Shown: positions 13,400 through 17,447, counted from the stretch's first letter. The stretch is 64,000 nt of DNA from Chitinophagaceae bacterium (GCA_947374225.1 CANCAY010000001.1:48841-112840); one strand, 5' to 3'. Numbers and translations: made by a program. Notes: generated by a model from the sequence alone, not told the origin.

Positions 13400-15337
13400 A
13401 TGAGCTATCCCTACCAAATTAAAAGTCTTGAAGCGTATCACGAAGCCTACAAGCAAAGTATTGAAAATCCAGCAGCCTTCTGGACTGAGATTGCCGAGAA
13501 TTTTACCTGGAGTAAAAAATGGGATACTGCATTAGATTGGAATTTCAAAGACCCGAAAATTGAATGGTTTAAAGGAGGTAAATTAAATATTACAGAAAAT
13601 TGCCTGGACCGACATTTAGAAAAAAATGGTGATACTCCTGCACTTATTTGGGAACCTAATGACCCAGAAGAACATCACCGTATAATCACTTACAAACAAT
13701 TACATTTAAAAGTTTGTCAATTTGCGCAAGTGTTATTAAACAATGGCGTTCAAAAAGGAGATCGTGTTTGTTTATACATGGGAATGATTCCTGAATTAAC
13801 TATTGCTGTTTTAGCTTGTGCTAGAATTGGTGCAATACATAGTGTTATTTTTGGAGGATTTTCTGCTCAAAGTATTGCAGACCGCCTAGAAGATGCAAAA
13901 GCAGAATTCATAATAACATGCGATGGCGCCTATAGAGGAGCAAAAGACATTCCATTAAAGTCAGTAATAGACGATGCGTTAATTGGAAACAAATCAATCA
14001 AACGCGTCATTGTTTGTACTAGAACCAGAACCGCAGTTTCCATGATTAAGGGTCGTGATGTTTGGTGGGAGGATGAAATTAAAAAAGTAGAATCTCAAGG
14101 ACTAGCATTAGTTGCACCCGTTCAAATGGATGCAGAAGATCCATTATTTATTTTATATACTTCTGGTTCAACAGGCAAGCCAAAAGGAGTTGTACATAGT
14201 GTTGCAGGCTATATGATTTATACTAACTACACTTTTGTAAACGTATTTCAATATCAACCTAATGATATCTTTTTCTGTACTGCTGACGTAGGTTGGATTA
14301 CAGGACATAGCTATATTATTTACGGACCATTAAGTGCTGGCGGAACTTCATTAATGTTTGAGGGTATTCCAACTTTTCCTGACGCTGGACGTTTCTGGGA
14401 TATCATTGACAAGTTCAGAGTAAATATTTTATACACTGCTCCAACAGCAATTCGTTCCCTAATGGGCTTTGGTTTAGGTCCAGTTAAAGACCATGACTTG
14501 AGCAGTTTGAAAGTATTAGGAACAGTAGGCGAACCTATAAACGAAGAAGCTTGGCATTGGTATGACGAAAATATTGGTAAGAAAAAATGTCCTATTGTTG
14601 ACACTTGGTGGCAAACAGAAACAGGAGGAATTTTAATATCCAATATGGCTGGAATTACACCAGGCAGACCAGGATGGGCAACTTATCCAATGCCTGGCGT
14701 TAAAGGGATTTTAGTAGATGACAAAGGCATTGAAGTAACTGAAATGGAAGACGGATTGTTCCGTGGTAATTTATGTATCACACAACCTTGGCCTGCTATT
14801 TTGAGAACTACTTACGGAGACCACGAAAGATGCCGAACTAATTATTTTGCAACATATGAGAACTTATATTTTACGGGTGACGGCGCTTTAAAAACCGAAG
14901 ACGGTCAGTTTAGAATTACCGGTCGTGTAGATGATGTATTAAACGTAAGTGGACACCGTATTGGTACTGCCGAAGTGGAAAATGCAATTAATATGCATGC
15001 TGGTGTGGTAGAAAGTGCGGTGGTAGGTTATCCTCATGACATCAAAGGACAGGGCATTTATGCTTATGTAATTTACACTGGCTCCCATGGACAGGATACA
15101 CATGGCACTGCAGACATGATTAGAAGAGATATTTTACAAACAGTTACTAGAATCATTGGCCCCATTGCTAAACCTGATAAAATTCAATTTGTTTCAGGTT
15201 TACCTAAAACAAGGTCTGGTAAAATTATGCGCCGCATTCTAAGAAAAGTAGCCGAAGGTGAATTGAAAAACGTAGGTGATACTTCTACTTTATTAGACCC
15301 TGCAGTAGTGGATGAAATTGTAAGAGGCGTTTTGTAA
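13400..15337 (+). CDS. acs: acetate--CoA ligase (AMP-forming acetyl-CoA synthetase)
   Basis: YTSGSTGKPKG, DTWWQTETGG, GRVDDVLNVSGHR, LPKTRSGKIMRR (acetylatable Lys). Confidence 0.97.
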   Translation: MSYPYQIKSLEAYHEAYKQSIENPAAFWTEIAENFTWSKKWDTALDWNFKDPKIEWFKGGKLNITENCLDRHLEKNGDTPALIWEPNDPEEHHRIITYKQLHLKVCQFAQVLLNNGVQKGDRVCLYMGMIPELTIAVLACARIGAIHSVIFGGFSAQSIADRLEDAKAEFIITCDGAYRGAKDIPLKSVIDDALIGNKSIKRVIVCTRTRTAVSMIKGRDVWWEDEIKKVESQGLALVAPVQMDAEDPLFILYTSGSTGKPKGVVHSVAGYMIYTNYTFVNVFQYQPNDIFFCTADVGWITGHSYIIYGPLSAGGTSLMFEGIPTFPDAGRFWDIIDKFRVNILYTAPTAIRSLMGFGLGPVKDHDLSSLKVLGTVGEPINEEAWHWYDENIGKKKCPIVDTWWQTETGGILISNMAGITPGRPGWATYPMPGVKGILVDDKGIEVTEMEDGLFRGNLCITQPWPAILRTTYGDHERCRTNYFATYENLYFTGDGALKTEDGQFRITGRVDDVLNVSGHRIGTAEVENAINMHAGVVESAVVGYPHDIKGQGIYAYVIYTGSHGQDTHGTADMIRRDILQTVTRIIGPIAKPDKIQFVSGLPKTRSGKIMRRILRKVAEGELKNVGDTSTLLDPAVVDEIVRGVL

Positions 15338-15357: not shown

Positions 15358-15392
15358 AAATCCCGATGGCTTCAAAGCTTTCGGGATTTTTT
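15358..15392 (+). terminator. intrinsic terminator of acs
   Basis: AAATCCCGA/TCGGGATTT stem with inner pairs, followed by a T run. Confidence 0.75.
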
Positions 15393-15402
15393 ATTTCCAC
15401 AA

Positions 15403-15459
15403 TTTCATCAGACGCGTTCGCTTTCATCAGACGCGTTCGCTTTCATCAGACGCGTTCGC
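15403..15459. repeat. perfect tandem repeat, 3 x 19 bp (TTTCATCAGACGCGTTCGC)
   Basis: units 15403-15421, 15422-15440, 15441-15459 are identical; last unit completes hairpin AGACGC-GTTC-GCGTCT (15448-15463). Confidence 0.95.
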
Positions 15460-15487
15460 GTCTTCTTCTGCTTCAATAAAGAGCTTT

Positions 15488-15647
15488 ATAAAACAAACTA
15501 TCGCTCTCTGTTCGACCTGCCCGCTAAAAATGACCGCGTCCATCTAAAATCGCGAACTCGCTGCGCTCAGACATGCGCGATTTTTAACGATGCACTTGGT
15601 CATTTTCTTAACGCTAGGTCTCAGAGTTCGCGAGTAGTTTATTTTAT
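15488..15647. repeat. long imperfect inverted repeat A capped by core motif (core reads TGTCTGAGC-GCA-GCGAGTTC on the minus strand)
   Basis: nested pairs ATAAAA/TTTTAT, AAACTA/TAGTTT, TCGC/GCGA, CTCTG/CAGAG, GACCT/AGGTC, AAAATGACC/GGTCATTTT, CATC/GATG, AAAATCGCG/CGCGATTTT. Confidence 0.85.
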
Positions 15648-15677
15648 TCACTCTTTATATTATCAAACATTCAAAAG

Positions 15678-15856
15678 CGCAAGGCTTGGCGTATTCCAAT
15701 CCTGAACTTCGAGCCATAGCGTAAAAAAAATTGTAAAATCGAACGACTAAAACTTAGCTGTCTGAGCACGAAGTGCGAGTTCTAAGTTTTAGTTTGATTT
15801 TATTATTTTTTAGCGTCATGGCGAGCCGAGAAGGATGGGATATGCCAAGCTCTGCG
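15678..15856. repeat. long imperfect inverted repeat B capped by core motif TGTCTGAGC-ACGAAGT-GCGAGTTC (plus strand)
   Basis: nested pairs GCTTGGC/GCCAAGC, ATCCT/AGGAT, GCCAT/ATGGC, AAAATCGA/TTGATTTT and perfect 12-bp ACTAAAACTTAG/CTAAGTTTTAGT (15746-15757 / 15782-15793). Confidence 0.85.
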
Positions 15857-15916
15857 ATTCCTTCATTTTAAAAATAGAAGACACGACAGAGAAAAAGTGG
15901 GATACGCCAAGCCCTG
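15836..15916. repeat. 19-bp direct repeat TGGGATAYGCCAAGCYCTG (15836-15854 and 15898-15916; 17/19 identical)
   Basis: read directly; both copies are complementary to 15683-15697. Confidence 0.85.
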
Positions 15917-15950: not shown

Positions 15951-17447
15951 CTACTGTTCCATTAAATTTTTCAACTTTTTAGCTAAGAAGAATAAAATAA
16001 CAGAAGCAATTCCTGCCATGAAAACAAAGAACATAAAGAAATCATGAAGGTTGGCAATTTGATAGCCTAAGAATGCAGTTGTTTTTCCGTTTTCTGGATA
16101 CAACGCACTAAAAACTCCTGCTAATTTATTGGCAAAAGCATTGGCTGTAAACCATACTGCCATTAGTAAAGAAGCGAATTTAACAGGAGCTAATTTATTC
16201 ACTAAAGACAACCCAATGGGAGACAAACAAAGTTCTCCAAAAGTATGCATCATATACATTCCAATCAACCAAATCATGCTCACTTTTACTCCAGTACCTA
16301 CTCCATTTACGCCTGTTGCTATCCATAAATAACCTAATGCTAATAAAAATAATCCTGCGGCCATTTTATAAGGAGACGATGGTTCATGCTTTCCTAATTT
16401 AATCCAAAGCCAAGCCATTAATGGCGCTAATGTTACAACAAAAAGTGAATTCAGTGACTGAAAATAACTAGAAGGAACAACAAACCATCCTAAATCTCTT
16501 TGCGTATTTTCTTCTGCAAAGAAAGTTAAACTTGCGCCTGCTTGTTCGAAAGCACTCCAGAAGAAAACTACAAAAAAGGAAACTACAAATATCACTAGTA
16601 CTTTTTGCTTTTCAATTTTAGATAATATTTTATCAGAAAAAACAATCACCGCTATTAGCGTTATACAGGCTAACAATAAATAAAATAAATAACTTACAAT
16701 TTTAATATCGATGTATACAAGCGCGATGGTAATTAAGGATAAAACAAAAAGAAACAAAACCATTACTGGTAATTTCTGAAACCATTTTGGTGCATTGGCA
16801 GGCGCTTCCCCTAATTGATTCCCTTTTGGATCTTTTAAATACTTTTTTTGAAAAAGCCATTGTGTAAGCACGCTCAATAACATAGCTACCCCTCCGGCAA
16901 AAAACGCCCATTTAAAATCACCTGATTTTCCTGTGTCCCCAAAAAAGCCACATACAAAAGGTCCTAAAGCACCTCCTGTATTAATACCCATATAAAAAAT
17001 AGTATATGCTGCGTCTATTCTCTTATCCCCTTTTTCATATAACTGACCTACTAAACTTGAAATATTAGGTTTGAAAAAACCATTCCCTGAAATCATACAA
17101 CCCAGTCCAACATAAAATAGAATAGAGGAAATTTCTGGATTTTGATAATAATGACCACACCCAAATAAAACAAACTCTCCTATTGCCATCATGAGTCCTC
17201 CAACAATAATGGACTTATTATTTCCCCAGTAACGGTCAGCAATATAACCTCCTAATAAAGGGGTCAAATAAATCAAACTAGTATAACTACCGTATACCTG
17301 AGATGCAAACACTTTATCAAAAAGCAAGGCCTTGGTTAAAAACAACACCAAAATAGCACGCATGCCATAAAAGTTGAATCGTTCCCACATTTCAGTTGCA
17401 AACAAAACATACAAACCCCTAGGATGCTTAATTGTCGATGTTGACAT
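15951..17447 (-). CDS. proton-dependent oligopeptide transporter (POT/PTR family, MFS)
   Basis: EMWERFNFYGMR (ExxERFxYYG), GNGFFKPNIS, FYMGINTG, FEQAGASL, ELCLSPIGLS; start moved to ATG 17447. Confidence 0.93.
   Translation of the reverse strand: MSTSTIKHPRGLYVLFATEMWERFNFYGMRAILVLFLTKALLFDKVFASQVYGSYTSLIYLTPLLGGYIADRYWGNNKSIIVGGLMMAIGEFVLFGCGHYYQNPEISSILFYVGLGCMISGNGFFKPNISSLVGQLYEKGDKRIDAAYTIFYMGINTGGALGPFVCGFFGDTGKSGDFKWAFFAGGVAMLLSVLTQWLFQKKYLKDPKGNQLGEAPANAPKWFQKLPVMVLFLFVLSLITIALVYIDIKIVSYLFYLLLACITLIAVIVFSDKILSKIEKQKVLVIFVVSFFVVFFWSAFEQAGASLTFFAEENTQRDLGWFVVPSSYFQSLNSLFVVTLAPLMAWLWIKLGKHEPSSPYKMAAGLFLLALGYLWIATGVNGVGTGVKVSMIWLIGMYMMHTFGELCLSPIGLSLVNKLAPVKFASLLMAVWFTANAFANKLAGVFSALYPENGKTTAFLGYQIANLHDFFMFFVFMAGIASVILFFLAKKLKNLMEQ

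What the first reader, a model, noticed from the sequence alone, without database searches (positions are those of the whole stretch)
15488..15856. Two long hairpins with different stems but the same capping core, in opposite orientation: candidate REP/BIME-like or ssDNA-signal element
Seen: in a window where most intergenic gaps are under 150 bp, the 613-bp gap between convergent acs and the POT transporter holds two long imperfect inverted repeats (15488-15647; 15678-15856). Their stems are largely unrelated in sequence, but both end in the same core: minus strand TGTCTGAGC-GCA-GCGAGTTC (15554-15573) and plus strand TGTCTGAGC-ACGAAGT-GCGAGTTC (15759-15782). In that orientation each core folds into a mini-hairpin closed by C-[GNA]-G (GCA or GAA triloop) and stacked on a tandem 5'-GA/5'-GA mismatch. 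Established: C-GNA-G triloops (d(GCGAAGC) type) and tandem sheared G.A pairs are unusually stable in DNA, and folded ssDNA hairpins are what HUH/Y1 transposases (RAYT, IS200/IS605 TnpA) and primosome assembly sites recognise. Inference: this is a protein-recognised ssDNA structure, possibly a non-autonomous repeat family mobilised in trans, with fixed cap and free stem. No transposase or nuclease is in the window. A structured ncRNA is the alternative.
Basis: partly seen in the sequence, partly recalled or inferred. Interest (0 to 1): 0.8.

Follow-up and report, generated by a model that had tools for sequence, protein, structure and literature searches.

The report
Mobile structured hairpin repeat, inverted pair
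The two hairpins are diverged copies of one undescribed, gene-less repeat that folds on one strand only, was gained at this spot in this lineage, and occurs across Bacteroidota and in some Clostridia; what copies it is unknown.

Summary
Both hairpins and the shared cap are real and far from chance. A (15491-15644, minus) and B (15689-15845, plus) are homologous along their whole length, with conserved internal loops separated by covarying helices.

- **Copies:** the genome holds 11 full copies, 2 decayed ones and 1 short form. Four loci carry the same inverted pair.
- **Spread:** a covariance model finds the family in over 80 loci of Chitinophagaceae, Flavobacterium, Marinilabiliaceae, Bacteroidales and a few Clostridia. 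No Rfam 15 family matches.
- **Gain:** relatives with the same acs/POT synteny have 8-38 bp here, so the elements were gained.
- **Mobility elsewhere:** in Marinilabiliales the hairpin is cargo of a roughly 345-bp MITE with 13-bp terminal inverted repeats and 9-bp target duplications.
- **Strand:** the fold is strand-specific (G.U:A.C = 326:77).
- **Cap:** it follows the GCGNAGC/GCGNNAGC "mini-hairpin DNA" consensus.

No RAYT, transposase, promoter or plasmid link was found. Best reading: a non-autonomous, REP/ERIC-like structured repeat recognised as a single strand. Whether that strand is ssDNA or RNA is unresolved. It is a new variant of a known kind.

The parts
15474..15656 (-). Hairpin A with its outer stem. 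The conserved body is 15491-15644.
   Evidence: Covariance-model match of 158.3 bits. Fold z -8.2. nhmmer E 9e-39.
15554..15573 (-). Cap of A: TGTCTGAGC-GCA-GCGAGTTC, a C(GCA)G triloop on a tandem G.A pair.
15657..15676 (.). A/T-rich spacer between the two hairpins.
   Evidence: It contains no TAnnTTTG promoter box.
15677..15857 (+). Hairpin B with its outer stem. The conserved body is 15689-15845.
   Evidence: Covariance-model match of 160.5 bits. Fold z -9.3.
15759..15782 (+). Cap of B: TGTCTGAGC-ACGAAGT-GCGAGTTC, a C(GAA)G triloop on a stem 2 bp longer than in A.
15472..15860 (.). The A+B pair as a single repeated unit.
   Evidence: It matches contig C4:38562-38952 at 96.4% over 391 bp. This is the only recent non-coding repeat over 300 bp in the assembly. 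Deleted derivatives lie at C11:43195-43436 and C7:44346-44593.
15358..15395 (+). Terminator-like hairpin AAATCCCGA..TCGGGATTTTTT just after acs.
   Evidence: The same hairpin precedes the unit at all four loci of this subfamily. Six to nine such hairpins occur in the genome.
15403..15459 (+). Tandem repeat of 3 x 19 bp, TTTCATCAGACGCGTTCGC, an expansion of the spacer between the terminator and hairpin A.
   Evidence: C11 has a single unexpanded version.
15898..15916 (+). Second copy of B's 3' outer arm.
   Evidence: It is 89% complementary to 15680-15698, against 79% for the nearer arm over a longer 24-nt span (repeats I4, I2 and D4).

Best explanation
The two hairpins are an inverted pair of one non-autonomous, mobile, structured repeat of the REP/ERIC kind. 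I read the causal steps as follows, marking each as shown or inferred.

1. **Shown.** The unit is a hairpin of 155-230 nt. Its helices drift by compensatory change. Its internal loops and its cap (TGTYTGAGC-GNA-GCGAGTTC) stay fixed.
2. **Shown.** The fold is optimised on one strand only.
3. **Shown.** The pair was gained at the acs/POT gap in this lineage. It was recently copied to a second locus as one 389-bp unit, and copies decay by deletions between short repeated motifs.
4. **Inferred.** An unidentified trans-acting protein recognises the conserved cap and the G.A-rich loops on a single strand. I favour ssDNA slightly over RNA. This recognition is what keeps the core constant across phyla.
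5. **Inferred.** Between convergent genes the long hairpin is tolerated, or even useful, as a two-way barrier or 3'-end hairpin.
For: **Family and structure**
- The genome holds 11 full copies, 2 decayed copies and 1 short form.
- A covariance model gives 103 matches in 80 loci across Bacteroidota and some Clostridia.
- 88.2% of cells are paired against 56.6% in shuffles. 48 of 52 pairs show compensatory changes. Slid controls give 35-51%.

**Strand specificity**
- G.U:A.C is 326:77 overall and 78:5 among the 25 closest copies.
- In the outer stems G.U:A.C is 19:6, and purine-purine to pyrimidine-pyrimidine mismatches are 37:12.
- Fold energies differ between strands under both RNA and DNA parameters.

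**Gain and mobility**
- Relatives with the same synteny have 8-38 bp at this site. One has a single copy and three have remnants.
- The A+B unit is duplicated at 96.4%.
- In Marinilabiliales the hairpin sits inside a MITE with 13-bp terminal inverted repeats and a 9-bp target duplication, perfect in 5 of 6 aligned copies and 8 of 9 in the sixth, and also seen in L227 and L273.
- Flavobacterium copies are about 95% identical between species at non-syntenic sites.

**ssDNA lean**
- The loops are GAA, GTA, GCA, GATA and GTTA closed by GC/GC. This is the GCGNAGC/GCGNNAGC mini-hairpin DNA consensus, which is far more stable as DNA than as RNA (PMC13037366).
- No GNRA or UNCG loop appears among the variants.
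- No TAnnTTTG promoter box lies upstream (5 of 101).
- Orientation relative to co-directional neighbouring genes is unbiased (21 to 17).

**Location**
- Every copy with genes called on both sides but one (C15) lies between convergent genes. In relatives the element often fills the whole gap between two stop codons.
Against: - No enzyme was found. An enterobacterial RayT profile finds no homologue in this 92%-complete assembly, and no transposase lies beside any copy.
- No terminal inverted repeats or target duplications could be defined for the copies in this genome.
- Flavobacterium and Marinilabiliaceae versions carry a U-run and a covarying pseudoknot that includes a G.U pair. About 7% of pairs are G.U, and one position is 74% U.G. 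These features are typical of RNA.
- Conservation peaks at the centre of the element, not at the ends as expected of an ordinary MITE.
Confidence: 0.55

Rival explanations
1. It is a family of structured small-RNA genes, or RNA modules carried by mobile DNA. The hairpin would be transcribed from the TGTYTGAGC strand, and the conserved loops would bind a protein or a target RNA. In Flavobacterium the 3' pseudoknot with a U.A-U triplex would protect the 3' end.
For: - Covariation is strong and G.U pairs make up 7% of pairs.
- One position prefers U.G over C-G by 74 to 24.
- A U-run follows stem P1. A downstream hairpin has a loop that pairs with the 3' end of the element, and this pairing covaries: CTTGAT/ATCAAG, CTTGAC/GTCAAG, TGCAGC/GCTGTA, CTGCAGC/GCTGCAG.
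- In Marinilabiliaceae the base of the stem is GC-rich and followed by U6, like an intrinsic terminator.
- L046 holds a tandem array of 12 units of 213 nt.
Against: - No Rfam family matches.
- No canonical Bacteroidota promoter box lies upstream.
- Orientation relative to neighbouring genes shows no bias.
- The apical loops follow the stable-DNA consensus rather than the stable-RNA consensus.
- The copies in this window lack the 3' module and sit between two terminators.
- A near-perfect duplex of about 100 bp would be a substrate for RNase III.
Confidence: 0.3
2. It is a passive palindromic filler or terminator. On this view it is an ordinary MITE-like palindrome whose only effect is hairpin formation, with no specific partner for the core.
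For: - The copies lie between convergent genes, where in relatives they replace simple two-way terminators.
- Copies decay by deletion.
Against: - The non-palindromic loops and the 9-nt and 8-nt cap words are invariant from Chitinophagaceae to Clostridia, while the helices change.
- Mismatches are asymmetric between strands.
- The same module appears in different vehicles and in both orientations.
Confidence: 0.08
3. It is a single-strand initiation signal of the sso/ssi type, a hairpin that recruits primase or RNA polymerase on ssDNA. Examples are the complementary-strand origins of phages G4, St-1 and alpha3, ssiA of RSF1010, and the ssoA origin of rolling-circle plasmids.
For: - The GCGNAGC/GCGNNAGC cap is the motif found at those origins (PMC13037366).
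- The element is a strand-specific long hairpin.
- TAGCGT, the CS-6 word of ssoA as I recall it from my own knowledge, is invariant in an internal loop.
Against: - Neither query, the A+B unit or the Flavobacterium unit, matches any of 72,556 plasmids.
- Only 4 exact-pattern hits occur among 2.9 million viral contigs.
- The copies are chromosomal, between housekeeping genes, and in both orientations.
Confidence: 0.05
4. It is an attC-like recombination site marking gene cassettes. The folded strand would be antisense to the gene whose 3' end it follows, as with the bottom strand of attC.
For: - In the paired copies each element is antisense to the adjacent gene.
- L033 holds four units of ORF plus element in series.
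Against: - The conserved part is the apex, not the base, and I saw no R''/R' core sites at the base by eye.
- The four ORFs in L033 are paralogues, so a tandem duplication explains that array.
- Across the wider family, orientation relative to the upstream gene is not fixed.
- No integrase was seen.
Confidence: 0.02

Closest known systems
REP / BIME / REPIN elements, especially the CGTC-tagged REPs that lack a known transposase (Di Nocera et al. 2013, PMC3733652)
   Same: - Both are extragenic hairpin repeats lying between convergent or co-directional genes.
- Both form inverted doublets.
- G.T pairs occur in the stems.
- Some REPs are nested inside larger palindromes.
- A (C/T)GTC-like word precedes the hairpin; here it is TGTC or TGTT.
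- No dedicated enzyme is known.
   Different: - REPs are 20-40 bp with 8-9 bp stems, 4-5 nt loops and a CCA tail.
- Here the unit is 155-230 nt and modular. Its cap has 2 G-C pairs plus a tandem G.A pair and mostly 3-nt loops.
- There are about a dozen copies per genome, not hundreds.
ERIC/IRU of enterobacteria and bcr1 of the Bacillus cereus group (from my own knowledge and the background section of PMC3733652)
   Same: - Both are imperfect palindromes of about 125-155 bp in intergenic DNA.
- Sequence is conserved across genera, with compensatory changes.
- Copy number varies between genomes, and function is debated between RNA and DNA.
   Different: - The sequences look unrelated, though I made no direct comparison.
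- This family spans phyla.
- Its conservation peaks at the apex and in G.A-rich internal loops.
MITEs with terminal inverted repeats and target-site duplications
   Same: - In Marinilabiliales the hairpin lies inside an element of about 345 bp.
- That element has 13-bp terminal inverted repeats (CATTGGTGTCCGG / CCGGACAATAGTG) and 9-bp duplications.
   Different: - The same repeats carry other cargos (L219, L255, L278), so the hairpin is a passenger.
- The copies in this window show no such ends.
Mini-hairpin DNA, GCGNAGC/GCGNNAGC (PMC13037366)
   Same: The cap loops and their closing pairs fit this consensus in most variants.
   Different: This is a thermodynamic motif, not a genetic element. 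Its known biological contexts are ssDNA phage origins, ssiA and N4 promoters, none of which applies here.

Membership tests
REP/REPIN with RAYT | A short (20-40 bp) palindromic unit with a GTAG or CGTC tag | tested here: not met
   The unit is 155-230 nt. Only the 20-nt cap is REP-sized. It is preceded by TGTC or TGTT, but it lacks the 8-9 bp stem and the CCA tail described in PMC3733652.
REP/REPIN with RAYT | Inverted doublets at extragenic sites downstream of genes | tested here: met
   Four inverted pairs occur in this genome and three in relatives, all between convergent genes.
REP/REPIN with RAYT | A cognate RAYT (Y1 HUH) gene in the genome, flanked by the repeats | tested here: inconclusive
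   hmmsearch and jackhmmer with enterobacterial RayT against all six-frame ORFs found nothing below E = 1. The profile is narrow and the assembly is 92% complete.
MITE (DDE-type) | Terminal inverted repeats plus target-site duplication | tested here: inconclusive
   The criterion is met in Marinilabiliales: a 9-bp duplication in all 6 aligned copies (perfect in 5, 8 of 9 in one), and also in L227 and L273. It was not found for the copies of this genome.
MITE (DDE-type) | Conservation highest at the ends, and a matching autonomous IS | tested here: not met
   Conservation peaks at the apex. No transposase lies next to the repeat ends examined.
Rfam RNA families (Flavo-1 and all others) | A covariance-model match at or near the gathering score | tested here: not met
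   Nothing covers the element in the window or in 18 other loci. A Flavo-1 match exists in L046, but 2 kb away from the element.
Integron attC | Conserved R''/R' core sites at the base, a variable centre, and IntI nearby | tested here: not met
   The pattern is the reverse: the apex is conserved and the base is variable. This rests on inspection only, and no integrase search was run.
sso/ssi single-strand initiation signals | Residence on rolling-circle plasmids, ssDNA phages or conjugative elements | tested here: not met
   No PLSDB match and 4 IMG/VR hits. The neighbours are chromosomal housekeeping genes.
sso/ssi single-strand initiation signals | Priming or transcription from the folded single strand | not testable with these tools
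   This needs a biochemical assay.
FopS/GibS sRNAs of Bacteroides | 65-70 nt sRNAs with the R1' seed, confined to Bacteroidaceae | tested here: not met
   Size and distribution differ (PMC11697453). No sequence comparison was run.

The most novel reading that the evidence does not exclude
The element belongs to an unrecognised class of cross-phylum mobile hairpin modules. On this reading they are copied through a single-stranded intermediate by an enzyme that reads a G.A-zippered C(GNA)G mini-hairpin. They can nest inside one another's caps and ride in unrelated vehicles such as MITEs and tandem arrays. The same logic might explain the 'orphan' CGTC-type REPs that have no known transposase.
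Probability: 0.2. Interest if true: 0.85.

Novelty: new variant of a known kind. Interest (0 to 1): 0.6.

Why it matters
Bacterial genomes carry many hairpin repeats whose means of spread is unknown. Only the GTAG REPs have a candidate enzyme, the RAYTs.

This family offers an unusually informative case for four reasons:
- It has a long, well-defined fold with invariant loops conserved across phyla.
- An empty site and an occupied site are available at one syntenic locus.
- The same module occurs both bare and as cargo of a MITE with clean target duplications.
- Cultured carriers exist in which ssDNA and RNA recognition can be told apart: Flavobacterium glycines, F. flevense and Alkalitalea saponilacus.

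Finding the partner protein would address how 'orphan' REP-like repeats move. The Flavobacterium version may also hold a bacterial triple-helix pseudoknot.

Tried and rejected
**Searches that found nothing**
- Rfam in gathering and E-value modes on the window and on 18 other loci gave no match.
- FopS sRNAs are the wrong size and from the wrong taxon.
- A literature search with sequence strings and with topic words turned up no description of this family.
- The RayT profile found nothing in this genome.
- The Bacteroidota -7 promoter box TAnnTTTG occurs upstream of only 5 of 101 copies.
- The sigma-70 promoter and terminator scan was uninformative.
- PLSDB gave no match.

**Analyses that failed or were inconclusive**
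- Target duplications around the Chitinophagaceae copies: the fold-based outer boundaries were unreliable and no direct repeats appeared.
- The search for the autonomous partner of the Marinilabiliales MITE through its repeat end returned mostly chance 14-mer hits and no transposase.
- No gene is consistently linked to the element in Flavobacterium or in Clostridia.
- The test of whether the inner core and the outer stems have separate histories is ambiguous. Inner identity of 89-95% goes with unrelated outer stems (window B against L195). Either selection or module exchange would explain this.

- My first genome search used the wrong spacing (N5-6 instead of N4-5), so its negative result is void.

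Full report
**1. What is in the window**

acs ends at 15337 and the POT-family transporter ends at 15951 on the other strand. The gap between them is 613 bp. It contains, in order:
- a terminator-like hairpin (15358-15395);
- a perfect 3 x 19-bp tandem repeat (15403-15459);
- hairpin A (15474-15656);
- a 20-bp spacer;
- hairpin B (15677-15857);
- a second copy of B's 3' outer arm (15898-15916).

On the strand that reads TGTCTGAGC...GCGAGTTC, A folds at -71.7 kcal/mol (z = -8.2) and B at -81.0 kcal/mol (z = -9.3). The complementary strands fold less well. The same asymmetry appears with DNA parameters.

**2. The two hairpins are one family**

The core pattern occurs 11 times in this 2.46-Mb, 35% G+C assembly. 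When the copies are aligned on the core, A and B share a series of conserved blocks: cTGAAC-yy-GAG, CATAGCGTtAA-AAAA, CGTTAAAAA, GCATGTyTGAGC-loop-GCGAGTTC, TTTTAG, TTTTTAGCG and CATGG-CGAGC-GAGAAG. Helices of variable sequence separate these blocks. RNAalifold finds 52 pairs, of which 31 show compensatory double changes among only 11 sequences. The statement that the stems are unrelated is therefore wrong.

nhmmer gives 11 full copies and two decayed loci:
- C7:44464-44543 carries a deletion between two CTGAG words.
- C11:43195-43436 carries two deletions, one of them between TAGTTT(A/G)ATTTTATT repeats.

A short form at C22:15868-15925 has only the lower part of the hairpin, closed directly by C-GAA-G. 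Similar short forms are the remnants at the acs/POT locus of L125 and L129.

The internal loops are locally two-fold symmetric: CGAG faces CGAG, AGCG faces AGCG, and UGAGC faces GCGAG. Each forms G-C pairs flanked by G.A and A.G. This is read directly from the alignment.

**3. Distribution**

An exact-pattern scan of one genome per species returned more than 116 loci. A covariance model built from the 11 copies (R1) found 103 matches in 80 of them:
- Full-length matches of 100-162 bits come from Chitinophagaceae and Sediminibacterium-like MAGs.
- Matches of 25-65 bits come from Flavobacterium, Marinilabiliaceae, other Bacteroidales and Cyclobacteriaceae.
- A few Clostridia also match: Clostridium lacusfryxellense, Finegoldia, Peptoniphilus, Alkaliphilus and Urinicoccus.

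The part common to all is CG-UUAAAAAA-[5-6 bp]-UGUYUGAGC-loop-GCGAGUUC-[5-6 bp]-UUUUAG.

On this alignment 88.2% of cells are paired against 56.6% in shuffles. 48 of 52 pairs show compensatory changes, and sliding the partners drops pairing to 35-51%. The alignment was fitted to the model, which favours the structure. Even so, helix 10 is 99.3% paired and uses four pair types at several positions.

No Rfam 15 family matches any version. I found no paper describing the family. The FopS sRNAs of Bacteroides are a different thing.

**4. The element was gained here and it moves**

The transporter gene brought in 80 related loci. In about 20 of them acs and POT are still convergent neighbours. The gap between them varies:
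- It is 8-38 bp in eight loci: L140, L132, L128, L131, L178, L124, L121 and L126.
- It holds a plain two-way terminator in five.
- It holds one B-type copy in L195.
- It holds degenerate remnants in L122, L125 and L129.

Model R1 finds nothing in the other 57 loci searched. The pair in the window is thus a lineage-specific gain.

Within the genome, 15472-15860 matches C4:38562-38952 at 96.4% over 391 bp. This is the only recent non-coding repeat longer than 300 bp in the assembly, so A+B was copied as one unit. At all four loci of this subfamily the unit follows an ATCCCGA..TCGGGATTTTT hairpin that starts within about 30 nt of a stop codon.

In Marinilabiliaceae and related Bacteroidales the hairpin lies inside an element of about 345 bp. 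That element is bounded by CATTGGTGTCCGG and CCGGACAATAGTG and flanked by a 9-bp A/T-rich duplication, perfect in five of six aligned copies and 8 of 9 in the sixth. The same ends with 9-bp duplications enclose other cargos (L219, L255, L278). They also enclose our hairpin in L227, and an inverted variant in L273. The hairpin is therefore a module that travels in different vehicles. I found no transposase for these ends.

In Flavobacterium a unit of about 190 nt is roughly 95% identical between species yet sits next to unrelated housekeeping genes. It also forms arrays: 12 x 213 nt in L046, and four copies beside tandem RCC1/T9SS paralogues in L033.

**5. Strand and chemistry**

Among the model's pairs G.U outnumbers A.C by 326 to 77, and by 78 to 5 in the 25 closest copies. 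In the outer stems, which the model does not cover, the G.U:A.C ratio is 19 to 6. Purine-purine mismatches outnumber pyrimidine-pyrimidine ones by 37 to 12. The fold is therefore selected on one strand.

Which nucleic acid is selected remains open.

For DNA:
- The cap loops are GAA (22), GTA (13), GCA (6) and ACGAAGT (9), plus GATA and GTTA. Nearly all are closed by GC/GC.
- This is exactly the GCGNAGC/GCGNNAGC mini-hairpin DNA consensus. A 2026 review reports that the RNA counterparts are much less stable (PMC13037366).
- No GNRA or UNCG loop appears among the variants.
- The canonical Bacteroidota promoter box is absent upstream (5 of 101).
- Orientation relative to co-directional neighbours is even (21 to 17).

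For RNA:
- 7% of pairs are G.U, and one position prefers U.G to C-G by 74 to 24.
- In Flavobacterium and Marinilabiliaceae a U-run follows the hairpin. After it comes a polypyrimidine/polypurine hairpin whose loop pairs with the 3' end of the element, and this pairing covaries: CTTGAT/ATCAAG, CTTGAC/GTCAAG, TGCAGC/GCTGTA with a G.U pair, and CTGCAGC/GCTGCAG.

The copies in this window lack that 3' module.

**6. Context**

In this genome every copy that has called genes on both sides, except one (C15), lies between convergent genes. In pairs each hairpin's folded strand is antisense to the adjacent gene. Because the pair is one invertible unit, this is not independent evidence of an orientation rule.

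In relatives the element often fills the whole gap between two stop codons, 1-28 nt on each side. There it must be met by transcription from both sides.

Across the family, divergent promoter-type gaps are rare (5 cases, against 25 convergent and 38 co-directional). REPs and MITEs show the same pattern (PMC3733652).

**7. Comparison with known kinds**

The design is closest to REP/BIME/REPIN elements, and among them to the CGTC-tagged REPs. Those have a (C/T)GTC tag, form head-to-head dimers, may sit inside larger palindromes and have no known transposase (PMC3733652). Our unit fails their defining sizes (20-40 bp, 8-9 bp stems, 4-5 nt loops, CCA tail), so I do not file it there.

It behaves like ERIC or bcr1: palindromes of 125-155 bp, conserved across genera, with compensatory change.

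A RayT-based profile finds no homologue in this genome, but this is a weak test.

Neither query matched any plasmid and only four viral contigs have the pattern. This speaks against a plasmid or phage single-strand origin, even though the cap motif is the one seen at such origins.

**8. Verdict**

The safest statement is that this is a mobile, non-autonomous, strand-specifically folded hairpin repeat with a cross-phylum conserved core. My preferred mechanism is recognition of the cap and the G.A loops on a single strand by an unidentified protein, with ssDNA slightly favoured over RNA. That mechanism is inferred, not shown.

Earlier notes of this scan describe similar C(GNA)G-capped repeat families in other phyla. 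I treat them as leads only.

Copy numbers in relatives and transcription therefore remain untested.

Noticed in passing
L019:1905-1960, L057:6166-6215 and other Flavobacterium loci; L054, L072, L035, L073, L012, L010: A conserved 3' module follows the hairpin: a U-run, then a polypyrimidine/polypurine hairpin (TTTCTTTTTTG-ATCAAG-CAAAAAAGAAA). Its loop pairs with the 3' end of the element, and this pairing covaries between lineages. It may be an H-type pseudoknot with U.A-U triples.
   Followed up: partly
L046:2191-4854: Twelve head-to-tail copies of a 213-nt unit, each holding one hairpin element. The first eleven are 90-99% identical and the last about 67-69%. The array lies between a periplasmic-binding-protein gene and a TonB-dependent receptor gene in Flavobacterium sp. 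14A. A Flavo-1 RNA lies 2 kb away.
   Followed up: partly
L033:419-7536: Four tandem paralogous genes encode RCC1-repeat proteins with a T9SS sorting domain. Three are followed 35-40 nt after the stop codon by one copy of the element on the opposite strand; the fourth copy lies beyond the last gene.
   Followed up: partly
L219:5202-5410, L255:2652-2898, L278:942-1260, L273:2900-3325, L227:3180-3513: A MITE family of Bacteroidales and Marinilabiliales has ends CATTGGTGTCCGGT / ACCGGACAATAGTG and 9-bp target duplications. It carries quite different internal cargos, including a CGTC-type REP-like hairpin in L219. No transposase was found.
   Followed up: partly
window 15403-15463: A perfect 3 x 19-bp tandem repeat ends in the small palindrome AGACGCGTTCGCGTCT. 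The same palindrome with the same flanks occurs at C4:3176. Near-identical 28-32 nt stretches lie at C11:52521 and C7:34457.
   Followed up: partly
window 15836-15854 and 15898-15916: B's 3' outer arm is present twice, 62 nt apart. The farther copy pairs better with the 5' arm (89% against 79% for the nearer arm, measured over a longer span). This could be a duplication scar or an alternative closing stem.
   Followed up: no
genome contig C22:15868-15925: A short form of the element consists of the lower module only, closed by C-GAA-G. Together with the half-deleted copy at C7:44464-44543, it suggests decay by deletions between the repeated YGAG/CGAG words. The alternative is that full-length copies arose by nesting of one module in another's cap.
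   Followed up: partly
L015:4267-4426: A contig binned as Comamonas sp. carries a Chitinophagaceae-type copy whose 3' half is nearly identical to this genome's copy at C11:57835. This is probably a mis-binned contig.
   Followed up: no
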